Shown here: positions 1,480 through 37,685 of the stretch, in pieces | Layout: each line of letters opens with the position of its first letter | Position numbering within the stretch: the stretch's first letter is position 1 | From: Octopus sinensis | Lineage: Eukaryota | NCBI RefSeq assembly: GCF_006345805.1 | Contig: NC_042997.1 | Location: forward strand, 38,254,001 to 38,318,000 | Length of the DNA: 64,000 bases | Direction of reading: 5' to 3' | The notes under the pieces: model-generated | What the model saw: only the letters and a program-made list of their open reading frames with translations | The model's database searches: none | What the model was told of the DNA's origin: nothing | Position numbers and translations under genes: made by a program

Positions 1480-3547
1480 CACATAATTACCATTATGTCA
1501 GTTCACCTAACTATCAACAGGTTATATGTAGTGATTGCCTTGATATATATATATCAACAGAAGAACAATGAATGTCAAAACGTGGACTCAAAATATTTAT
1601 ATAAATCAAGTTTAAATAAAGATAAAAAATATTTATTCTGGCTGACTAGAAGCTGCAATATTGAAAAAGAAACAAACAGCATAAAATAAATGTAAAAACA
1701 ATAAAAATAAAATGCAATATTCTACGTGAATATTGATGTTTTTGTACTGAACAAAGTGTTTAGAAATGCAAGTCCATTTTCTTTTTAAACTTATCTAACT
1801 TTAATTACCTAGTAAGTCGTCTTTTGGGCCAGGTCAGCATTAATATGGCGATAATATGATGAAACACACTAGTCAAAATCCCCTATCTTTTTCCTATATA
1901 TAATACGCCCAGAAGTTTATTATTCAATGTTTAGTTCTTTTTTAAACAGTAATGTTGTATTTGAGGAAGGTTTCACTGCACCTTTTAGCAATTAAAACAC
2001 ATTTACAGAATCTGTCTCATTGTATTATTGTATCTAGCATTCTTGGAAAAGAATGAACATTATATTTTTGTAAACACTACTTACTACAAAATATACAAGT
2101 CCACATTCCTTCCAGCTACATAAAAAATAAACATTTTCTTTTTTGTTCATTTAAGTGAGAACAAAGGTAAAATAGAGAAAGTTTTGCTCTTGATGCTTTT
2201 ACCGAGGAAATTAATACGATAGTAAAGTGAAATGGCTTCAACTAGAATCGAAGCAGTACAGATTCAACTCTACAAAAGATTATCATTTTCTCTACGGCGT
2301 TGTTAAAGTAATTTCTCTGAATAAATTGCTATGTGAATATTCAAAATAATTTACAGTTATGACGACTAAAGCTTCGTTTGGAAAAAACAGTTCATTTCCA
2401 GGTCCATTTATAGTATGTGCGCATAATATTTTCTTGTTTGTTGTTTTCAAGAAACATCTTAGAATGAATTCTGTTGAGTTCATTTAATTTTTGTGGTATT
2501 TACCGTATATAACCATAAGAAAAAACTATGTTATTATGTAAAGTTGTTACTTTTATTATTTTCTAGCGTGTTATTGCTTTGATTCTGGCGTTTTTAAGTG
2601 CGAAGACAACGTCAATATTTGTGTAGGTGACTTTTTTTTTTGTATTTCTATATTTGCATGTGTATACATGCATAAAATTCCACGCCATATATACATTTAT
2701 ATATAAATTCACATATAAACGTACGTTTTATGTAATACTGTAGGAACCTGTGTGTGTGTGTGTGTGTGTCTGTTTGTCCTTGCCTATTATATTTACTGGA
2801 TAACAGAGTATCGCACTTTCGAGCTAAATTTGGTTTTGTTTTAACGTTGCTTTGTTTTTGCTTTGTCTTTTTTACAGCTTAAACGAAATATGTCTTCACT
2901 TAATATTTGTTGTTATTCATGTTTCTCTTGCATTCATAAATTTCTTTCTCATTCATTTTCCAATGCGCCTTTTGCGTTGTTGCTTTCTTTTGTGTTTTTT
3001 TTTTCCAAAAGGAAGCACTTAGGTCAAATCAAGACAACAAGAATCGCTTACCATAAAGAAAAGTAACCTTTCTCTGCTATTTCACTGACTATATCAAGGA
3101 ATTTTTCCGGTCTTACAAGGAAAACACATTACGATCATAAAAATATTTCTACGTTGTGTATATGTGATACATGATTTCATGAACGATGTGAGATGGTGTA
3201 ATAGATGGAATGGGAGAGAAGAATGAAGAGATTTTTTTTTTTAATTCGTTGTGCTATGGTATATTATGTTGAAGACTCTGACAAACATTTCTATTACGAC
3301 TCACTGGAATGGTAATGCAGAAAACAGAATCTGATAAGCTATTTCACGCTAAAAAAAAAAAAAATATATATATATATACGTGTGTGTTGTGTGTGAAGGC
3401 GTACGTAAAGAGGTATAAACAATAATCTACACAACGTTTCTATATCGAATTGAATACATTTTGCGATGTAAGAAATAAAGCTTTTTATACATATACATTT
3501 TATCTAAATATAAGTAAATATACACATGCACACACTGATCTGAATAC

Positions 3548-3790
3548 ATATATATATATATATGTATGCATATGTGTATGTATGCATGCATGTATGTTTG
3601 TATGTATGTATGTATGCATGTATGTATGCATGCATGTATGTATGCATGTATGTATGCATGCATATATGTATGCATGTATGTATGTATGTATGTATGTATG
3701 TTGTATGTATGTATGCATGTATGTTTGTATGCATGCATGTATGTATGTATGTATGTATGTATGTATGTATGTATGTATGTATGTATGTGT
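3548..3790. repeat. (TATG/CATG)n compound microsatellite
   Basis: Seen directly. Similar tracts at 19245-19327, 19812-20010, 44005-44101 and 45583-45680. Confidence 0.95.
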
Positions 3791-4354
3791 GAGCGCGTAG
3801 GCAACGATAAAACCGTACAGTTAGGCTGTTGACCTTGTAGAGCATTCCCGAAGACGAAATTTTCTTGAAACATAACAGACATCGTTCTGCTGTAAGATCT
3901 TCTGGAGTTCAAGGACATCGATAATTTACCATTGCACGTGGTACCTATTTCCTGGAGCTCCTGCCAACGCGAGCGAGCGATTGCGAATGAAAAGAGTCGC
4001 AGCAAAATCTGTGCTCACAGAAGATCAAAAGCGGTCGTGACTGAATGCGTGTCGTGAACTGAAACAACAGTTGGATGTTAATCTGGACCTTTTTTCCGAA
4101 GGTCATCACTGTGACGATAGATGGTGCTACGGAATTCGCAGATGTGAAAGAGATGAAGAAAAAATGACGATGGCGTTAAAAGTGATCACTTTGCAAGAGT
4201 TCCAGCACTTCTTCGGATTGTGGAAAATGCACCTGGATCGATATATTGCTTCAAATGTAGGCTACTTTGAAGGCGATAAAAGTGTAAATATGTGAAAATA
4301 AGTGAATAAAATAATATTGCAAAATCCCGGTTTCTGTGGGGTACCTCTTCGTAT
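3790..4354 (+). mobile_element. Decayed, internally deleted mariner
   Basis: VIT.DDRWCYG and FQHFFGLWKMHLDRYIASNVGYFEGD (mariner C-terminus); TIR-like end GGGTACCTCTTCG followed by TA. Confidence 0.65.
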
Positions 4355-6230
4355 ATCTATATAAATACCTGAGATTTGTTCAATTGTGTCAACATTTACG
4401 CATTTCATCAATGTTTAAAATAAGGAAATTAAAGCCAACCATTATTAAATAGAAATATCGGAAGATTAGGACCATTTCAAAGTTGTAAACATGATAACGG
4501 CAAAAAATTAACTAACTTTCAAATTAAATGCTTGCAAAATTTAAAACTGGGAAGGTGAGAATATCAAGGTGTGTCAAAGTTCTACGAGGTAGAAGACATT
4601 GAGACACCGCAATATGTCCCGACATGAACAATATTATTAGTACATTGATATGTAAATATACATAGACATGCATAAAAACATTTATACATACACACGTACA
4701 GATACGCATATGCATACACATTGTTTTAATACATGCACCCTCGCATATGCGCACACTCACAAGCATACACGCACACACTCGCACACGTACATGCAGTTGT
4801 ATATACATGTGTGTGTATGTGTGTATTTATAGTGACAAGTCTGGGTTATTTTACCTTGTTCTAAAGAAAACTTCAAAAGGTACAGCCTGACAAACATTCT
4901 ATACAACCAGTTGGAAACCAAATATATTTCGAATAAAACGATGATTTGAAGTATGATAGCTGCGTTCCAACAGAGAAATCAAGGAACAAATGCATCAAGA
5001 GATTAAATCAATTTATTGACCTCAAGTCTAAGTCTACGGACTTGTGTACTTGTATATCAGTCGTAACGTCTTTATAGTCTCTATCCTATCTCCTGCAATT
5101 ACCTCTTTCAATTAGACACGAGAACAAACTTCTTTTAATTAATGCAAGTACACGTTAACTATGCGGTACTCATAAAATTATTTATGTATAATTAAACGGT
5201 TAATAATTCTCATGGAAGCAAGTATAGCTTGCTACATCATAAAAGACCCAAAACAGCATTTTCAGCCTAGAAAAGAAATCAGTAATTTCACTGATCATAT
5301 ATGCGAATGTGAATTTGAGAACATCTTTAAAATAGCTAAAGAATTTCTGACGAGGCATGAAAATGAAACTGGTACTGGATTCCCTCTGTGGAACATCGAT
5401 AATCCTACACAACACATCACTATCATATAAGTTAAGTTAGTTCATTCAAAAATATTGCAGATGGGCGCTTAAAATGAAGACAACAAGCCATATAGAAAAT
5501 CATATCACACTAAAACCATTATGTGAAGTACCGATAAATGTATGACATTACATCTTGAAAGGACAAGATGAACAATTGCCAGCTCCAAATATTCCTGACA
5601 AGTATTTTTGCGCATAAAAAAAATCATCTCTCAATGCAAGCTATATAAATATAAATCTGAAAAAATCAGCCACATCATTGTGCACTACCAGGGAATGACT
5701 TCTATGTACGATATTTCCGAGTGGTGTATTATGCTCACCAGAAAACAAATTTATCGGGAAAGAATAAATAGACGGAATGCGAGCTTCCCTAGCGTGCGGA
5801 ACTGAGTCTATAAGAGAGTTTTTTTTGCAACAACCACATGATTCTTTGAATTCACATTTTATTCTACTCATGTAATAAAATACAAATATTTTGAAACTGG
5901 TAAGTAGACGGAATTTAGAACAATTATATTCAAAGCAACAACCTATTTAAAGCAGTGTCGAATACATATTACTTGATATAGCAAAATATTAGTGTACTAT
6001 GTCTCGAAAGTCCGCGGTTTATTTGATGTTAATATGGTAAACAAAATGCAAGAAAAAATAGATATATCAGTGGTCCATTGGTCGGGAGATTTCAACGTTC
6101 AACTTTATATCTTTTCTTTATAATTGAAGCAACAATATGAGAAACCCACTCATAAACATATGAACAGATAGCTGAAATTCTTCAAGGATATATGCAGGTC
6201 TGTATGTATGTATATATATATATATATATA

Positions 6231-6331
<101 letters not shown>

Positions 6332-6444
6332 TCAGATGAATATGGTACTTAAGTTGAGGCACCAGAATTTAGTACGGTATTATCCATACAATTTCAAAAT
6401 AAGGTGATTAAAATCAAATAAGCAGAAAGGATATACAGTGGAAA

Positions 6445-6536
6445 TGCAGTACGTTCGTTTCATGCAACTCCATTTAATTGAACAATGCAATCATTTCATT
6501 ACATCAATTTAAAATGTAGATCAATCTTCAGCTGCA
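6445..6536 (-). ncRNA. Decayed type I hammerhead (relative of the 28.3-kb element)
   Basis: TGCAG-CTGAAGA..GAAAC-GAAC-GTA-CTGCA; stem II is disrupted. Confidence 0.5.
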
Positions 6537-6699
6537 CAAAGGCATAGACTTTTATTAAATTAGAACAGAAGGACACATTATTATAATTTTACCTAGAATC
6601 ACCAAGAAGTTAAGGAGATAGACAAAGAACATGTTGTACCAACATACTAATATTAATGTGTACCAAGCATACTAATATTAATATGAAATAAATAAATGT

Positions 6700-7560
6700 T
6701 ATACTTACGGACCTATTATTAAATTCAAAAATAAATTATGGGTCAGAAAAGACACTCACAACTGTTTCGATATTACAATGGGCGCGTCAGACTCAGCCCA
6801 AGTAACTGACCTTGTGGGAATTTACCTTTTATCAAATATACATGAAGAATCCCCAGAAATTTGGTGGATTGTATAGGGGTGACGCTCTTTTTATAGTAAA
6901 AAGTATTATATAAGTTCTTTAAAATATTTGGCCTTTCCATTACTATTGAGAGAAAAAAACAACTCTATAAAGTTTCTGGATGCCAATTGTAATGTATCAA
7001 CTGATCTATATGTACCTTATTAAAAACCTAACTCTAACTTCAAATACATACCTTTCCAAATTAACCACCCAAAATCAATAAAAATGCACTTATTCATAAT
7101 ATTTTAATATTAAATTGGATATAATAGATTCAGCACCTTCTTATGTAGCTAATAATAAAGGGGCTTTCTTTGTTTAAATTAGAAAGTTTTCATTCTCTCG
7201 ATGAGAGAATATTAACTAATTTTTATGAATATATTTACCCCAATATTAATATGATACATAAATACACAGTTAATTATTATATGTTATTTATCTCTATACT
7301 TTTTAATGATTACCCAGAGTATAGTATATATTATATTACATATTGTTTGCTAAATGTACACCCTTTCCTCCTTTATAAGGTCTATAATGAATTTATCAAT
7401 AAAACAAGGCTCAATTACCTGAAATGTTCCGTAAACTTAACATATAAAAATGTAATGGTATATCATTTTTCGATCTCCGACCAGATTCTACTTTATACTG
7501 ATTGAATTATTTCCTTTAAAATCTTTAAAGTCTGAATCGAAACACTTGTTATATCTATTT
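6700..7560 (+). mobile_element. Decayed Penelope-like RT remnant (YRDD type) with a decayed 3' hammerhead-like motif
   Basis: Manual translation gives LWVRKD..CFDITMGASDSAQVTDLVGIYLL, then after a frameshift FGGLYRGDAL, KFLDA and PY*KPNS..YI..NHP. CTGATTGA...GAAACACTTGTT at about 7498-7550. Confidence 0.65.
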
Positions 7561-30464: not shown

Positions 30465-30945
30465 TTTTACCATTTACTTGTTTCAGCCATTGCACTGCTG
30501 GTATGCCGGGACACCGCCTTGAAGTGTTTAGTCGAACGTATCGACCCCCAGTACTCATTCTTAAGCCCGGTACTTAATCTATCGGTCTCTTTTGGGCAAA
30601 CCGTCTAGTCACAGGGAAGTAAACAAACCACCACCGAATATCAAGCAGTGGTGAGAGACAAACACAAAGACATGCACACCTAAATACATAATTTTGTTTT
30701 GTGAGTGTGTGTGTGTGTCTGTCTGTGTGTGTGTGTGTGTCTGTCTGTGTGTGTGTGTGTGTGTATGTGTGGTTGTGTGTGTGTGTGTGTATGTCAATTT
30801 TATTTCAGTCTACCATATCCACTCACAAGGCTTTGGTCGGCTGGGGGTTTTAGAAAACACTTGTCCAAGGTCCCATGCTGTGGGACTGAACCCGAAACAA
30901 CGTGAATGAGAAGCAAGCTTCTTATCATACAACCATGCCTGCGCC
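30465..30945 (-). mobile_element. Older, diverged SINE S1 copy (other fragments at 268-398, 21290-21600, 29970-30170, 37390-37940)
   Basis: Colinear with S1 but with many substitutions; carries the AAGAAGCTTGCTTC variant head. Confidence 0.75.
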
Positions 30946-31795: not shown

Positions 31796-32999
31796 AGTAG
31801 CTTTATAGATTGTGATAAACTTGTTGTTGACCGCTGTAGCAAGTGGTGTCTGATGTATCTCAAATTAAGGTGGGAAGAGTGTAGAACGAACCAAGGTGAA
31901 GGCTTATACTTCCATCTTAGCAATCTTGATGTTTCAGCTTCTGAATAACTTTTATTTTCTCTGTATTCCCAGTAGTTTTATTTAATTGCTTCACATGATT
32001 CTAATAAAATTTATTCTTTTTTCACTGTAAGTAAATTTCTTATTTGTTAGAATATTGATTATATATATTTCTTTAGGCTCATTTGTTTATTTTATTCTAA
32101 TATTTGCTTTAATGGTTTTATTTATTGAAACATCACATGATTACCTTCATTAACTAGTACAGGTGGTTTATAGTTAATTTTCACTCCTCCAAACGATAGA
32201 TGCAGTATATATCTTATACTACTTCTCAATAATTTTTCTTCTAATTTGAATATGCTTCTAGCACCAATGATCTCACATAGAAATGTGTCTTTTAACTGCT
32301 AAAACTAAAATACATTGGTTTAATATTTTATCCTTGTATCAACAAAATATTGGAGCTTCACTGCGTCTGCACATCGTACACAGCATTTTTTCATAGCATA
32401 TAAGAGCGCATTAGCAGTTACCTTTATAAGTGATGAGTTTTTACTAGCAAATATTCATGAGAACAAAGATACATGTATCTCGAATGAGTTAAATACTATG
32501 CGTCTTCATCTCAATTTGGTGCAGTTTTCCAGCATTTATCCAGAACAATTCTTTCTCTTACCTTTTTCTCTAACTCACACCCAAGTCTACTGGAAAACTA
32601 GTCTTAGAATGTTTGTTTTTGTAACATGTTTCATTTTAATTTTGTTTTCAAATTAATTCATGTCATCACATTAATAATTCAAGAAGCTATCTTTAACTGC
32701 ATTCAACACCTGTGTTGCTTAAGTAGTAATGCGCCGTACATATACTTTCAATTATGTACAAGTTGATCTAAAGACAGAGAAGTATGTGTTTAGTCATAGC
32801 AACGTGCTCGTTTACAGAAACAAGTTTTAGAAATTATATTCGGGAATCCGACGCTCTATACACCCAAGTGTGAATCTAACGACTTGAATTTTATAGTAAT
32901 AACTCGAAATTGATCAGTTACCAAAACGTATATTTATGAATTGTTTAGGACTGACTTATGAAATATCTCAAGTCACTTATTTTGTAGTTACAAGCTAAA

Positions 33000-33840
33000 C
33001 AAATTCGTGCTGTTTATGAATGAGTTTCGTCGTGGAACCAAATCATCTCAGACAGCTCGAAATATCAATGGGGTGTTTGGTGAAGATGTGATGAATGAGC
33101 GCACTGTACGTCGATGGTTTGAGAAGTTCTGGTCTGATGACTTTACTTTTGAAGATCAGCCCCGTGGTAGACCTGAGATCAAGGTTGATAATGATGAGCT
33201 TGAAACTGTAATAGAAGCGGATACATCTCAACTGTATTGGACCAGCTGAAACAAATCGGCAAGGTAAAGAAGCTGGACAAGTGGGTACCACACGAACTGA
33301 ACGGGCATCAAATGACAAATCGTCTTGAAACTTTGCTGTTCTTTACTGCCACGGCATAAAAGTGAATCATTTTTGCATCGTAGTGTTACATGTGATGAAA
33401 AATGGATTCTTTTCTACAATAGCAAGTGTTCTTCACGGTGGTTGGATAGAGACGAAGTCCCTAAACACAATCCCAAAACAAGTATTCGCCGAAAAAGCTA
33501 AAGATGTCTCTTTGGTGACCCAGCGCTGGTGTCATTCCCTACAGTCTCATGAGACCTGGTCAGACAATCACAGCGGATGTATACATCAACCAACTGGGTG
33601 AAATGATGAGTGAACTTACAATTAAACGACCGAGATTGGTCAATAGAGACAGGCCAATTCTCTTGCAAGACTATGCTCGACCACTTGTTGTACAAAGAAC
33701 GCTACTCAAGTTAGAAGAACTGAACTTGGAAGTACTCTGTCGTCTGCCATATTAACCAGACCTTGCACCAACTGACTATCACGTTTTCCAGGCATTAGAC
33801 AAAATTTTGCAAGGAAAAGGCTTCAAATCTGAAGGAGATG
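33000..33840 (+). pseudogene. Mariner transposase pseudogene
   Basis: Motifs across frames: TARNIN..TVRRWFEKF..RGRP, WVPHEL, VTCDEKW, LLQDYARP and PY*PDLAPTDYHVF. Confidence 0.9.
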
Positions 33841-34027
33841 CATCCTTTCATGACCTTTCGTGACCTTTATGGTTTCATAAATTTGGTTTCATAAATTTGC
33901 TTTTCGAAATTTGAATTCCGAGTGACTTCATTGAACCCTTTGCAACAACCATTTTTGAAACTTTTTGGAAGCAATTATTTCATTAACTTTTTAATTAAAT
34001 AAACTTTTTAATTAAATTAAATATATA

Positions 34028-35457
34028 GTGGTGTCTATACCCTTTACCCACCACTCGCCGTCCATATTTTCCGCATACTTCTGTAATATCCGTACGTACT
34101 CCGTGTCTGCTAACACGTACATAATGTTCTCGGACAGACCCTTCACTCCCGTTATATCTACCTTTACTGCTCCGTCCTACGAGTCCAATTCATCGCACAG
34201 TTCTTCATTATGCCCATTATACATTATGACATATTTTTCTTTACAGGGCGGAGGTGGGTAATTTTGTGGCTCTTGTGTGTTAGTACATATTTTCTATGTC
34301 AGACAGGGCATGAGGAGGATTGGTGTCTGTAGGGAGTGGTTGCGGTAAAGTGGCTGTGGGTAGGGGCCGGGTTGGTATGGGTTGGAGGTCATCCTTTACC
34401 ACATGTGTCTGCCTCCTTTTTTTTTCTTCTTCCCTGCTATCTCCCAGTTGGTGCTTGTCTCCTCTTCTTCGATGGTGGTACTCTGTAACACCATATATCT
34501 TTTTCCTCCACGGACGGTGGATCATCTACCAATTTCTCATTCTCCTTAGCCTTTTCTGGTGGTAGAGGGCACTCCGCTCTAATGTCGCCTGAAAGGCCAC
34601 ATTTACAGCATCTCGGAATTCTTCCTCCGACTCTAACTTTCAACGTTGTGTCTCTTACTGTGATGTTCTCTATCATCTTTTGTATATCTTCATCCGCCAC
34701 TTGTACCAACATATCAAGTGTTTCTACCCGCCAGTTCCTATGCGGTTTTCTGGTAGCCTGTAGGCCCACCACCTTCTCCTCCTTACCTAGCAGTATGGCA
34801 GCCACCAGCCAGGCTACATTGACCTCCAGGGTTATTTCCTCTACCCTAACCCTGGAAGGTAAAGGGGCAGAAGAAATACTTCATTAGTTTTCAGCGGTGT
34901 TGCTGATTGCAGCCTCGCGATAGCTACCCCCAAAATGGCACCTCCACCGTTCCAAATTCTCTACTTCTGGCAAGGTAGGTAATTCTTTGCCCGGTTTGAG
35001 CGCCTTTTCCACCTGAACTGTTGACATAATTTCAATCTTTCCGGCTGCTATCGAAAATGTTCTATAAATGATGATTTTCTCGATTTCTTTTCTTTTCACA
35101 CTTATTTGGGGTGAAAAGGGAACATCTTCACGTCGTTCCTCTCCCTTTTAAGTATTTCCTTGAACTTGCTCAGCCCTTTCAGGTTTGTTTGATCAATTTC
35201 TTCTTCCCTCACCCCCGCTGCATAATTCTTCTTTTCAATAACCTTATTGACTAATTCCGACGGCGACGACATATGCTCCGAGGAAGGGCAGCCCTCAACA
35301 CTCCAGATAGAACAATTCAATTCTTCGCAACTTCTTGTTCGACGTCCCTCCATCACAAGAAGAAAAACGTCGCCAAAAAAGAAAAAAAAATCACGCACAG
35401 CCAAAAAACACGTCTATTTCGTAGAAATACAACAAACCGAATGAACTCTGGATAACC
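34028..35457 (-). mobile_element. ORF1-only retroelement, copy A (3' end lost)
   Basis: Colinear diverged homolog of copy B (KNYAAGV, LKGLSKFKEILKRE, VGGRIPRCCKCGLSGDIRAEC = degenerate CX2CX4HX4C). Shares the 5' end (G/A)GTTA(T/G)CCAGAGTTCATT. Confidence 0.65.
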
Positions 35458-35472
35458 GGAAGCAAGCTTCTT

Positions 35473-36965
35473 TAGTTTATGAAATTGGTCATAAAGGTCT
35501 TACATAGAGGGGGCAGCACAAGGTGAGGACAAGAAAAAATGAATGGAAATGAAATTATGCAATGAAAGATGAAATTGAATCGCTCGGCCCCACCTCCGGT
35601 TGACTTCATTGATCCCTTGCAACTCTCTTACTCCTGTTGTGTCCACTTTAATTGCAGTATACCATGTTTCTATTTCTTCATATAGTTCTTCAATAAGCCT
35701 GTTGTATAATAGAATGTATTTTCTTTCTCAGGGCAAGGTGGGGGGCTTTGGGGCTCCTGTGTTTTTATGTTTGTCTTCGTGTTAGTCGGAGTGTGGAGAG
35801 TGTTGGTGTCCGCAGGGAGTGGTCGGGGTAGTGTGTGTGTGGGTGAGGGCTGGGTGGGTGTGGTTGGGGGTCATTTTTACCCATGTGTGACTTTTTCTCC
35901 TCTTCCTGCTTTTTTCTCCACCATTTCCCACCTGGTATTTCATTCTTCCTTCTCGATACTGGTGCCTGTCTTCTTCTGTGGCACCTCCTCGTTACTTACT
36001 TCTTCCTCCATGGCCTGTAGAGAACTTACCACTCTTTTACCCTCCTCAGCCTTTTCCAGTGCTGAAGGGTATTCATGCTCTAATGTGGCCCATCAGGCCA
36101 CATTTATAACATCGTAGAATTCTTCCAGTCACTCTAACTTTCAAAGTCGTTTCACCCACTAAGATGGTTTCTACCGTCTTTTCTAGGTCCTCCTCCGTGA
36201 CTTGCACCAACCATCATTTCCAGGCTTTGACCACTCCAATTCCTTTTGGGTATTCTGATGGCCTGCAGGGCCATCAACTTCTCCTCCATCCCCAGCTGCA
36301 CGGCAGTCACCAGCCAGGCTACATTTACTTCCGGTGGTATGTCCTCTACTCGAACCATGGTAGTCCGTCTCCCAAGGTACACGGATAGCAGTACAACCTC
36401 ATTTATTTTCAACGGTGTAGCCGAGTACAGTTTAGCTGTTGCTATCTAATTAAACTACACCTCCACCGTTCCATATTTTCGACTTCTGGCCAGGTAAGAT
36501 ATCTCTTGTCAGACTGGCCTTAACACCTTTTCCACTTGTGCTGCCGACACCACTTCTATCTTCCTTGTTGTCACCGCATACGTTCTGTAGACGATTGTTC
36601 ACTCTACCGTATCTTTTAACAGATCTTTGTGAGGTGGGGGGAACCTTCATATTGTCCATCTCCCTTTCAAGCATTTCCTTGAACTTGCTTAACTCCTCCA
36701 GACTTACGTCTTCAATTCTTCCCGTTGCCACTGCTGCGTAATTGTTAGTGTCCATTTGCTTGTCAATCTTCTCCAAACACTTTGCCAAGTCCTCCTCAGA
36801 CGCGACTCAAATTCTGAATAAGACTTATACATTTTTCACAACTCTTCACACGACGCCTCTCCATCACACAAAAGGAAAAACTTTGCACAGCCAAAAAAAT
36901 CCGCACAGCAAAAAAAAAGGTCTACTTCGTACAAATAAAACAAACCAAATGAACTCTGGCTAACT
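35473..36965 (-). mobile_element. ORF1-only (HAL1-like) non-autonomous retroelement, copy B
   Basis: Frameshifted gag/ORF1-like frames (NNYAAVA, YLGRRTTMVRVEDIPPEV, decayed zinc knuckle), with no RT or endonuclease. Bounded by a perfect 15-bp direct repeat at 35458-35472 and 36966-36980. Confidence 0.65.
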
Positions 36966-37685
36966 GGAAGCAAGCTTCTTAACACACAGCCACGACTGAC
37001 ATATGTATGTGAAAGTGTGTATGTGCATAGGGGTACACTGCCTATTGTTTTGTATATCTTTGTATAATATTTCAATAATTTCATATTAAAATTTACTGGA
37101 CTCCTTTGAATTATTTGATTATTATTTTACTATGGAGCTATGATGTATTCGAGAGGTGAGTTGGCGGCGCTTCATTAACTTGGTATGGAATCTTCTTTTA
37201 TTCTTTGATATAAAATCTGCTGTCAAAACGTTCTTGATTATTGAAGGGCAGAAGTTTTTAAATGATGCTGCGGTCAATTTTCTTTAATTCAGGTACACAT
37301 CTCTGTTTGCTATACGAATCTTATTACTAATTGCGTCTTGCTAACGCTTGTTATGGAAATGGTGCTGCGTGTAACATATCTTTTATTTCTGTGAGTCATT
37401 TAACTGAGGCCATACCGACTTGAAGAGTTTTAATCGATCGAATAGAATGGTATCGAATTAAACGTGGTACTCAAACTATCGGTATATTTTGCCAAACCGC
37501 CAGTTACTGGGACCTAAACTAACACACACACACATACACAAACACCTATCTATCTAATACATATATATATATGCATACATATATATATAGATATATATAC
37601 ATATTATATATATATATATATATATATATACCATATAATATATATATATACTATATATATATGTATATATATATATATAGATATA

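What the first reader, a model, noticed from the sequence alone, without database searches (positions are those of the whole stretch)
34028..36994. ORF1-only retroelements stacked at one 15-bp target inside a SINE head
Seen, reading minus: SINE S1 head GTGGCTGTGTGTT-AAGAAGCTTGCTTCC, then element B (about 1.5 kb), then AAGAAGCTTGCTTCC again, then element A. B therefore has a perfect 15-bp TSD, and both diverged elements start at the same nucleotide of the tRNA-like head. They encode only a zinc-knuckle ORF1. Known: Tx1-clade L1 elements are often target-specific, and HAL1 elements are ORF1-only derivatives. Inference: a non-autonomous family that specifically parasitises an abundant SINE. The young S1 copies here read AAGTAGCTTGCT(T)A(C)C at this site, whereas the older copy near 30915 keeps AAGAAGCTTGCTTC. 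That could reflect escape from targeting, which is speculative.
Basis: partly seen in the sequence, partly recalled or inferred. Interest (0 to 1): 0.75.

Follow-up and report, generated by a model that had tools for sequence, protein, structure and literature searches.

The report
ORF1-only retroelements targeting a SINE
Two decayed gag-only retroelements lie head to tail at one fixed 15-base site inside a SINE, a site that hundreds of related copies and a full-length LINE also occupy across this genome, so they are likely non-autonomous riders of a site-specific LINE.

Summary
Reading minus: a SINE head, AAGAAGCTTGCTTCC, element B (1,493 nt), the same 15-mer, then element A (3'-truncated). 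Across genome G000, relatives show the same layout: SINE(1-40) | element | SINE(26-end). Of 39 loci found through B's 3' end, 26 continue into the SINE remainder and 6 into another element. An autonomous partner exists. A ~5.4-kb LINE (ORF1; ORF2 with endonuclease, reverse transcriptase, zf-RVT) ends in ...ATGAAATA and sits at the same SINE position in 27 of 29 loci picked by RT-region similarity alone. Its ORF1 is homologous to the ORF in A, B and their relatives (39% identity, E 9e-43). Three results exclude a "SINE plus insert moving as one unit" model. Short 5'-truncated inserts keep the 15-mer on both sides inside intact SINEs. Flanking SINEs are four times more diverged than the LINE copies. 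Flanks match the old empty SINE subfamily. A and B are not each other's nearest relatives, so they are separate insertions. Two corrections apply. In full-length young copies the upstream 15-mer is partly element-borne, not a pure TSD. The "escape" idea fails, because young SINE variants carry 555 exact element junctions. Tx1-clade placement was not tested by phylogeny. This is a new variant of a known kind.

The parts
36981..37003 (-). Diverged 5' head of the host SINE (SINE positions about 3-25), upstream of the array.
   Evidence: Read. Compared with the window's other SINE copies. The same head precedes the 15-mer in 24 of 30 genomic loci found with B's 5' end.
36966..36980 (-). First copy of the 15-mer AAGAAGCTTGCTTCC. 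It corresponds to SINE positions 26-40 (old subfamily version) and forms the joint between head and B.
   Evidence: Exact match. Maps to positions 26-40 of the SINE reference.
35473..36965 (-). Element B, 1,493 nt. It has a 5'UTR, decayed ORF1 (fragments 36450-36806, 36152-36445, and the CCHC knuckle near 36067-36210) and a 3' module at 35473-35640 ending ...CATAAACTA.
   Evidence: ORFs. tblastn with LINE ORF1s gives 40% identity, E 8e-30, and there is no ORF2 hit. The 3' module recurs genome-wide. The nearest relative lies on C3 at 82.1% over 1,235 nt.
35458..35472 (-). Second copy of the 15-mer, shared joint between B's 3' end and A's 5' end.
   Evidence: Exact match. The same kind of joint (element 3' end + 15-mer + element 5' end) is seen in 4 of 30 loci, 6 of 39 and 16 of 28.
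33917..35457 (-). Element A, 1,541 nt retained. It has a 5'UTR and decayed ORF1 (fragments 35102-35413, 34884-35147, 34437-34880, with a degenerate knuckle CCKCGLSGDIRAEC). The 3' end is missing from 33917 on.
   Evidence: ORFs. ORF1 homology at E 6e-16. The C8 paralogue (91% identical) continues through a complete 3' module, a third 15-mer and a further element. The nearest non-paralogous relative lies on C2 at 78.5% over 1,326 nt.

Best explanation
Elements B and A are two separately inserted, decayed copies of ORF1-only retroelements lying at one fixed 15-base site in the head of the genome's abundant SINE, and they were likely put there by the endonuclease and reverse transcriptase of a related L1/Tx1-like LINE that occupies the same site.

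Shown. (1) The layout SINE(1-40) | element | SINE(26-end) recurs genome-wide for several very divergent ORF1-only families. (2) A full-length LINE with ORF1 and ORF2 (endonuclease, reverse transcriptase, zf-RVT) lies at exactly the same position. It has a related 3' terminus (...ATGGCAAAT..ATGAAATA) and a homologous ORF1. (3) The SINE copies are older than their inserts and were hit independently. (4) 5'-truncated inserts keep the 15-mer on both sides, as expected from cuts 15 bp apart on the two strands.

Inferred. The LINE endonuclease nicks the bottom strand at GGT|AAG, and reverse transcription is primed there on the RNA's ...ATGAAATA end. The top strand is cut 15 bp downstream. The 5' end of a full-length RNA carries its own copy of the 15-mer, which pairs with the duplicated target end to seal the 5' joint. 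ORF1-only RNAs are coated by their own tandem-RRM plus zinc-knuckle protein and borrow ORF2p in trans through the shared 3' end.

Each insertion leaves a 15-mer on both sides, so later hits build head-to-tail arrays with one 15-mer per joint. The window holds such an array: head-15-B-15-A, and on the C8 paralogue it continues 15-next element.
For: Site specificity of ORF1-only families:
- With B's 5' end as query, 24 of 30 loci have the SINE head directly upstream of the 15-mer, 4 have another element's 3' end, 1 has a degenerate head and 1 has none.
- With B's 3' end as query, 26 of 39 loci continue into 15-mer + SINE remainder and 6 into 15-mer + another element. Two are ambiguous and 5 have no recognisable joint.
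- In a sample chosen by protein similarity only, 22 of 28 distinct loci show at least one such joint and 14 show both. The 15-mers lie 1.57-2.17 kb apart.
- Exact junction 23-mers: 199 (old type), 434 and 121 (young types); reversed controls are 0 each.

Autonomous partner:
- L249 reads head + 15-mer, a 5,486-bp decayed LINE...ATGAAATA + 15-mer + SINE remainder.
- For the young family, 27 of 29 loci selected by RT-region DNA end in ...ATGAAATA + 15-mer + SINE remainder.
- 20 of 20 fully fetched copies have the SINE head upstream.
- Pfam finds Exo_endo_phos, RVT_1 and zf-RVT.
- ORF1 homology: 39% over 180 aa, E 9e-43 to an ORF1-only copy; 37% over 98 aa, E 6e-16 to window element A.
- The last 40 nt of the LINE match B at 28 of 40 positions and another ORF1-only copy at 31 of 40.

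Independent hits on pre-existing SINEs:
- The last 130 nt of the LINE have mean pairwise distance 0.022; the adjoining SINE has 0.093 (n=27).
- For the old families, the 3' module has 0.139 and the SINE flank 0.207. The Mantel correlation is r=0.14, p=0.11 (n=32).
- The flanks' majority sequence is identical over 155 columns to that of old-type empty SINEs.
- Inserts of 50, 147 and 420 nt sit inside intact SINEs with the 15-mer on both sides (3 of 10 loci).

Other:
- A and B are separate insertions. B's nearest relative is on C3 (82.1% over 1,235 nt), A's is on C2 (78.5% over 1,326 nt), and A is not among B's 12 best.
- ORF1 fold: two RRM-like domains (pLDDT 80-95 over residues 1-170; Foldseek E about 1e-5 to SFPQ/NONO and IMP3 RRM12), followed by a zf-CCHC.
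Against: - No autonomous LINE of the old (AAGAAG...TCC) generation that would have moved A and B was found. The LINE copies seen lie in young-type SINEs.
- None of 20 young LINE copies has an uninterrupted ORF2; the longest open stretch is 1,030 aa. Present-day activity is therefore not shown. Assembly indels could be the cause, but that is a guess.
- In old copies the two 15-mers of a locus never share a private variant. That test therefore gives no positive proof of a TSD for A and B themselves.
- In full-length young copies the upstream 15-mer is not a faithful copy of the target (8 of 8 loci whose target copy has T at position 13 still have A upstream, 7 of them with one extra base). The simple TSD picture is incomplete.
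- The higher divergence of SINE flanks could partly reflect CpG decay rather than age. This was not corrected for.
- Trans-mobilisation and endonuclease specificity are inferences.
- The 3'-end similarity of 28-31 of 40 has no formal chance control.
- Placement in the Tx1 clade rests on domain content and behaviour, not on a tree.
Confidence: 0.8

Rival explanations
1. Composite unit. An ancestral element once landed in a master SINE, and the whole SINE-head + insert + SINE-tail has since been copied as one long SINE-like unit. Alternatively, the SINE is a deletion derivative of such a unit. On this reading the 15-mers are inherited and not made at each insertion.
For: In old copies the two 15-mers of a locus never share a private variant, and almost all read the same consensus. 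All old flanks belong to one SINE type. Tandem joints are frequent: 6 of 39 and 16 of 28.
Against: - The flank majority sequence equals that of old empty SINEs over 155 columns, although the element families differ so much that their ORF1s share only 35-55% identity.
- There is no co-divergence of flank and element (Mantel r=0.14, p=0.11).
- LINE copies about 99% alike sit in SINEs about 9% apart that carry different 15-mer variants.
- 5'-truncated inserts of 50-420 nt lie inside complete SINEs with both 15-mers.
- A rough census (about 21 old-type sites, and 2-4 elements, in 464 kb) makes repeated hits on the same SINE plausible.
Confidence: 0.04
2. A and B arose by local tandem duplication (unequal crossing-over) of one element plus its 15-mer, and then diverged.
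For: They are adjacent, in the same orientation and of the same 5'UTR type. In the first 135 nt A is B's best match (82%), against 77% or less for other non-paralogous copies.
Against: Over the whole element B is closer to a copy on C3 (82.1% over 1,235 nt) and several others than to A (74% over the ORF). A is not among B's 12 best matches. A's best non-paralogous match is on C2. The same joint type recurs between unrelated families at many loci.
Confidence: 0.03
3. There is no target-site duplication. The 15-mer is simply the first 15 nt of every element's RNA, the element inserts bluntly in front of the SINE's own 15-mer, and the apparent TSD is terminal redundancy.
For: In the young LINE the upstream copy keeps ...GCTAAC whatever the target reads (8 of 8 loci with T at position 13 in the target copy). 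The joint shows one extra base in 7 of those 8. This trait is not inherited along the LINE tree.
Against: Inserts that lack the element's 5' end still have a full 15-mer on both sides (3 of 3 truncated inserts), so the target itself is duplicated. The two views can be combined: a 15-bp staggered cut plus a homologous RNA 5' end.
Confidence: 0.08

Closest known systems
Tx1-Mar LINEs and SINEU-3 of crocodilians (Kojima 2015, PMC4494074; I read passages and sections 14-15)
   Same: An L1/Tx1-type LINE group and a non-autonomous partner insert at one site of an abundant interspersed repeat (Mariner-N4_AMi) with a constant 16-bp TSD. 'Tandem SINEU-3 insertions ... sandwiching a TSD' are explained there by sequential insertion. 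This is the same picture as head-15-B-15-A.
   Different: Here the target is the head of a SINE, not a DNA transposon. The non-autonomous partners are 1.5-2.2-kb ORF1-coding elements, not SINEs. Successive families follow successive variants of the target. Tx1-clade membership of the present LINE is untested.
Tx1L in Tx1D of Xenopus, and Keno, Kibi and Koshi (as summarised in the introduction of PMC4494074; passage read)
   Same: These are LINEs with an APE-type endonuclease that choose a defined sequence in a multicopy target.
   Different: Their targets are a piggyBac-type transposon, U2 snRNA genes or microsatellites. No ORF1-only derivatives are mentioned in the passages I read.
HAL1, 'half-L1' (PMC5753468, passage read; it cites Smit 1999 and Bao & Jurka 2010, which I did not read)
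   Same: A non-autonomous LINE derivative that encodes only ORF1p and arose repeatedly.
   Different: HAL1 derives from mammalian L1 with a Type II ORF1p and has no fixed target. The elements here have a Type I-like ORF1 (RRMs + CCHC) and a fixed target, so the resemblance is an analogy and not membership.
R1/R2 rDNA-specific LINEs and HeT-A/TART telomeric arrays of Drosophila (recalled, no call)
   Same: R1/R2: fixed target, constant short duplication or deletion, and upstream target sequence carried on the RNA and used for the 5' joint. HeT-A: a gag-only element in head-to-tail arrays that depends on another element's RT.
   Different: These belong to other clades and use other targets (28S rDNA, chromosome ends). 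Nothing about them was tested here.

Membership tests
L1-superfamily, Tx1-like target-specific LINE (applies to the autonomous relatives; A and B would be derivatives) | ORF2 with an N-terminal APE-type endonuclease, a reverse transcriptase and a C-terminal zinc-binding domain | tested here: met
   Pfam finds Exo_endo_phos, RVT_1 and zf-RVT in the SINE-resident LINE and in the related family called LINE-X in this report. The LINE-X ORF2 is collinear with human L1 ORF2p (E 3e-62 over residues 7-868), against R2 at 1e-23.
L1-superfamily, Tx1-like target-specific LINE | Type I ORF1p: RRM domain(s) plus a CCHC knuckle (definition taken from passages of PMC5203782) | tested here: met
   zf-CCHC by Pfam. 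The predicted fold has two RRM-like domains that match tandem-RRM proteins. Pfam's RRM and ZCCHC3-RBD models themselves do not hit, and the Atlas gives a ZCCHC3-RBD cluster only as a lead (0.91).
L1-superfamily, Tx1-like target-specific LINE | Insertion at one defined target sequence with a constant TSD | tested here: met
   27 of 29 RT-selected LINE loci and 26 of 39 ORF1-only loci continue into the SINE at the same nucleotide. Truncated inserts carry a 15-bp duplication.
L1-superfamily, Tx1-like target-specific LINE | RT phylogeny places it inside the Tx1 clade rather than L1 proper or another clade | not tested
   No named reference RT sequences were within reach. Database relatives carry no clade names.
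HAL1-type ORF1-only non-autonomous LINE derivative | Encodes ORF1 only, homologous to the ORF1 of an autonomous LINE | tested here: met
   There is no ORF2 homology in window 33800-37010. Unit length is 1.5-2.2 kb. ORF1 homology: E 9e-43, 2e-44 and 6e-16.
HAL1-type ORF1-only non-autonomous LINE derivative | Shares the 3' end recognised by the partner's RT | tested here: inconclusive
   28-31 of the last 40 nt are shared, with common blocks and the same ...ATGAAATA end. No chance control or functional test was done.
HAL1-type ORF1-only non-autonomous LINE derivative | Derived from mammalian L1 (HAL1 in the strict sense) | tested here: not met
   The ORF1 type is different (RRMs + CCHC) and the genome is not mammalian. 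This is an analogue and not a member.
tRNA-derived SINE (the host element) | tRNA-like head with A and B boxes | tested here: inconclusive
   ARAGORN finds no tRNA and Rfam finds no family in the window. The tRNA origin of this SINE and its likeness to octopus SINEs are recalled. Ohshima & Okada 1994 was seen only as an entry in the reference list of PMC10886601. That it is an abundant interspersed repeat is shown.

The most novel reading that the evidence does not exclude
A LINE lineage and a SINE are locked in a long chase. The LINE's RNA carries its own copy of the SINE's 15-mer, uses it to seal the 5' joint, and overwrites the target's variant. Successive LINE and ORF1-only families have retuned to each new SINE head variant (AAGAAG..TCC, then AAGTAG..TTAC, then ..TAAC). 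Every hit splits the SINE's promoter boxes and so silences a SINE source copy. Tens of thousands of ORF1-only elements act as hyperparasites that bring their own RNA coat and steal only the LINE's ORF2p.
Probability: 0.22. Interest if true: 0.75.

Novelty: new variant of a known kind. Interest (0 to 1): 0.55.

Why it matters
This is a clean natural case of a retrotransposon that uses another retrotransposon as its landing pad. The target is a 15-base site in a SINE that fills the genome; I counted about 65 SINE copies in 464 kb. Such insertions are probably nearly harmless to the host, which would explain how the family reached high copy numbers.

The case joins two things usually seen apart. 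One is strict target choice by an L1-type endonuclease. The other is a large radiation of ORF1-only riders.

The youngest copies also record how the 5' joint is made. The upstream 15-mer keeps the element's version and gains a base when the target differs. That makes the mechanism of 5'-end joining testable with one oligonucleotide target.

For annotation, SINE + 1.7 kb + SINE structures and their arrays in this genome should be read as nested insertions, not as new composite repeats.

In the open literature I searched I found no description of a SINE-targeting LINE in cephalopods. Repbase could not be consulted.

Tried and rejected
- Rfam and ARAGORN on the window found nothing.
- Protein database search with an ORF1 fragment gave no hit at E <= 0.001.
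- Profile comparison of the ORF1 alignment with a fish LINE that carries ZCCHC3-type RBDs matched only the zinc knuckle. A PDB profile search also matched only CCHC knuckles.
- The cluster look-up gave no clade names.
- A search of papers for a 27-nt SINE string returned 0 papers.
- Earlier findings of this scan: nothing on record.
- Paired-variant TSD test on old copies was uninformative, because all variants are private to one side.
- A second LINE family ('LINE-X', intact copy in L189) was considered as the partner of A and B and rejected. Its ORF1 is homologous (37%, E 2e-44), but its 3' end differs and its 3' flanks are unrelated to each other.
- L161, first taken for ORF1 + ORF2 of one element, turned out to be an ORF1-only element abutting a LINE-X copy.
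- 'Type 5', first suspected to be the autonomous element, is another ORF1-only family.
- The escape hypothesis was rejected.
- The composite-unit and local-duplication models were rejected, as set out under the rival explanations.
Full report
THE OBSERVATION

Read on the minus strand, the window shows a diverged SINE head (37003-36981). It is followed by AAGAAGCTTGCTTCC (36980-36966), element B (36965-35473), the identical 15-mer (35472-35458) and element A (35457 downwards).

The 15-mer is exact only at these two places. With up to 3 mismatches it has 11 matches against 1.11 expected, and 0 of 100 shuffles reach 11. Most of the other matches are the corresponding site of ordinary SINE copies. 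These read AAGTAGCTTGCTTAC in young-looking copies and AAGAAG... in two older ones.

B and A are homologous from the first base of the 15-mer onward: 82% over 135 nt, then 74% over 324 nt. Both carry only remnants of one ORF with a CCHC knuckle. ORF2 queries find nothing in 33800-37010.

One correction: A extends to 33917, not 34028. There it is cut off next to remnants of a mariner-type transposase on the other strand.

GENOME-WIDE FLANKS

The window lies in G000, a 2.72-Gb genome with 13,516 contigs.

- B's first 181 nt found 37 places. In the 30 loci returned, the 15-mer is preceded by the SINE head in 24, by another element's 3' end in 4, by a degenerate head in 1 and by neither in 1.
- B's last 168 nt found 40 scored places out of 104 candidates. 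I re-fetched the 39 non-window places with 2.4 kb upstream.
- Of these 39, the 3' end ...CATGAAATA is followed by the 15-mer and the rest of the SINE in 26. It is followed by the 15-mer and the 5' end of another element in 6. Two are ambiguous and 5 have no recognisable joint.
- Mapped against a SINE copy from the window, the layout is SINE 1-40, element, SINE 26-end. SINE positions 26-40 are therefore present twice.
- A sample chosen only by protein similarity gave the same picture. That search had 150 of 31,896 first-look candidates scored and returned 30 loci, 28 of them distinct. Of the 28, 22 show at least one such joint and 14 show both, with the 15-mers 1.57-2.17 kb apart.
- Several families with unrelated 5'UTRs, and with ORF1s only 35-55% identical, share the site and the 3' module.

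TARGETED INSERTION OR A COMPOSITE THAT MOVES AS ONE UNIT?

This was the main rival. For the old families the evidence is indirect.

- The two 15-mers of a locus never share a private variant, so that test is uninformative.
- The majority sequence of 32 SINE flanks is identical over 155 columns to that of 15 old-type empty SINEs. It differs from 26 young-type copies at 5 columns.
- Flank and element do not co-diverge (Mantel r=0.14, p=0.11).
- The flanks are more diverged from one another (0.207) than the adjoining 3' modules are (0.139).
- The flanks have the age of old empty SINEs: 0.203 against 0.236, with young SINEs at 0.084.

The decisive evidence came from younger relatives, described next.

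THE AUTONOMOUS PARTNER

To test the 'escape' idea I searched for the element end joined to the young SINE's 15-mer. ATGAAATA+AAGTAGCTTGCTTAC occurs 434 times exactly. The ..TAAC variant occurs 121 times and the old-type junction 199 times. Reversed-pattern controls are 0 in all three searches.

Among the first loci, one (L249) reads SINE head + 15-mer, a 5,486-bp decayed LINE with ORF1, endonuclease and RT, then ...ATGAAATA + 15-mer + SINE remainder.

Its RT-to-3' region found a large family (5,028 first-look candidates, 40 scored). Of the 29 loci returned:
- 27 end in ...AAATGCCTAAATGGCAAATTATATGAAATA followed by the 15-mer and the SINE remainder;
- 1 is followed by the 15-mer and other sequence;
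- 1 shows no joint.

Twenty copies fetched in full are about 5.44 kb long and about 99% alike, with terminal branches near 0.006. All 20 have the SINE head upstream.

Pfam finds Exo_endo_phos, RVT_1 and zf-RVT in ORF2 and zf-CCHC in ORF1. None of the 20 has an uninterrupted ORF2; the longest open stretch is 1,030 aa.

ORF1 is homologous to that of the ORF1-only elements: 39% over 180 aa, E 9e-43. Against window element A it gives 37% over 98 aa, E 6e-16. The last 40 nt match B at 28 positions and another ORF1-only copy at 31.

WHY THE COMPOSITE MODEL FAILS

- The LINE copies' last 130 nt differ by 0.022 on average, while the SINE sequence immediately next to them differs by 0.093 (n=27). The SINEs are therefore older and were hit one by one.
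- The target copy of the 15-mer varies among near-identical LINE copies (TTAC, TAAC and private variants), as expected of different SINE copies.
- 3 of the 10 loci returned carry very short inserts: the last 50, 147 and 420 nt of an element. Each sits inside an otherwise complete SINE with the 15-mer on both sides. These are classic 5'-truncated products of target-primed reverse transcription. They show that the target itself is duplicated by 15 bp.

THE 5' JOINT

The 17 young copies with the same 5'UTR start and with both joints readable show the following.

- When the target copy (3' side) reads ..GCTAAC (9 loci), the upstream copy is a seamless 15-mer in 7 and has one extra T in 2.
- When the target copy reads ..TTAC (7 loci), the upstream copy still ends ..CTAAC and is 16 nt long: AAGTAGCTTTGCTAAC in 5 and AAGTAGCTTGTCTAAC in 2.
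- One locus with ..TTAG has the plain ..TAAC 15-mer upstream.
- These joint types are scattered over the tree of the copies, so they arise at each insertion.

I infer that the full-length RNA starts with its own copy of (part of) the 15-mer, and that this pairs with the duplicated target end. A mismatch then gives an untidy joint. It does not remove the target specificity.

ARRAYS, AND THE WINDOW'S ARRAY

Joints of the form 3' end + 15-mer + 5' end are common: 4 of 30, 6 of 39, and 16 of 28 for the family I called type 5.

A rough census of 400 kb of arbitrarily placed stretches plus the window (464 kb in all) gave about 35 young-type SINE sites and about 21 old-type sites. It gave one occupied flank besides the window's array, and ORF1 hits in 2 of the 40 random 10-kb stretches (3 elements, one of them weak). 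With a sizeable share of old-type sites occupied, second hits are not surprising. These counts are small.

B and A are not a local duplication. B's best non-paralogous match is on C3 (82.1% over 1,235 nt) and A's is on C2 (78.5% over 1,326 nt). A is not among B's 12 best.

The locus has a paralogue on C8, about 91% identical. There B(1-527) is joined to A(226-end), and A's complete 3' end is followed by a third 15-mer and a type-5 element. The B-A array therefore predates that duplication and was at least three elements long.

WHAT THE PROTEINS ARE

An alignment of 18 natural ORF1s, from ORF1-only families and from the second LINE family LINE-X, shows one conserved architecture.

The AlphaFold model has mean pLDDT 73, and 80-95 over residues 1-170. 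It has two beta-alpha-beta domains that Foldseek matches to tandem-RRM proteins (SFPQ/NONO, IMP3 RRM12) at E 9e-6 to 1e-4. Global TM scores are low, about 0.2. A CCHC knuckle and a disordered tail follow.

ORF2 was tested with the intact LINE-X copy. It is collinear with human L1 ORF2p (E 3e-62) and far from R2 (1e-23). Its nearest named relative is a fish protein with ZCCHC3-type RBDs, CCHC, endonuclease, RT and zf-RVT.

I could not make a clade-level RT tree, because the database relatives bear no clade names.

COMPARISON WITH WHAT IS KNOWN

The closest precedent I read is Kojima 2015 (PMC4494074, passages and sections 14-15). There, Tx1-Mar LINEs and SINEU-3 insert into a mariner-type repeat with a 16-bp TSD, and tandem insertions sandwiching a TSD are put down to sequential insertion.

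ORF1-only derivatives are known as HAL1 (PMC5753468, passage read).

Repeat surveys of octopus genomes list L1-Tx1 among old and recently active LINEs (PMC8967140 and PMC13282606, passages read). They bear on this genome only if my recollection is right that this SINE is of the octopus type, and no call confirms that.

My searches found no paper describing a LINE that targets a SINE in cephalopods. Repbase and supplementary tables were not consulted.

VERDICT

It is an instance of a known kind (target-specific L1/Tx1-type LINE with non-autonomous riders) in a new form: a SINE head as target, ORF1-only riders in large numbers, and families that follow the target's variants.

The escape speculation is refuted. 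Old elements sit in old SINEs and young elements in young SINEs.

Noticed in passing
L189 (G000:C16:5403500-5413000), element at about 2125-7445; also L186-L193: A second L1-type LINE family ('LINE-X', about 5.3 kb, copies 87-95% alike). One copy has open ORF1 (347 aa) and ORF2 (1,132 aa). Its 3' flanks are unrelated to each other. In 5 of 8 copies the 5' end directly abuts the 3' end of an ORF1-only element through a short shared string, ATTCCAGTCTGTTA.
   Followed up: partly
L161 (G000:C26:123451-132951) and L175: A distant ORF1-only element (382-aa open frame) and a LINE-X copy are each preceded by the same unrelated repeat, which ends ...AACATTGTGCT|AGCC. A similar string follows the LINE in L161. 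This hints at a second target sequence for another lineage.
   Followed up: no
window 32962-33755 (+): Remnants of a mariner-type transposase (open frames with ...GRPEIKVDNDELETVIEADTSQ... and ...RPRLVNRDRPILLQDYARP...) abut the point (33917) where element A is cut off. The family name is recalled, and Pfam was not run on them.
   Followed up: no
L100 (G000:C8:38434000-38441700) against window 33917-37650: There is a segmental duplicate of the whole locus on another chromosome-scale contig, about 91% identical. It has a 1.2-kb deletion joining B position 527 to A position 226.
   Followed up: partly
window SINE copies (e.g. 15346, 24773, 48841, 56717, 58870, 61299, 30909, 364) and loci: The SINE has at least three variants of the 15-mer site: AAGAAG..TCC (old, pairwise distance about 0.24), and AAGTAG..TTAC and AAGTAG..TAAC (young, about 0.08). 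In 464 kb about 65 copies cover the site.
   Followed up: partly
L135, L136, L137 (contigs C9316, C9317, C11031): Three small unplaced contigs carry what looks like the same ORF1-only locus (identical scores and joints). They are probably redundant assembly pieces.
   Followed up: no
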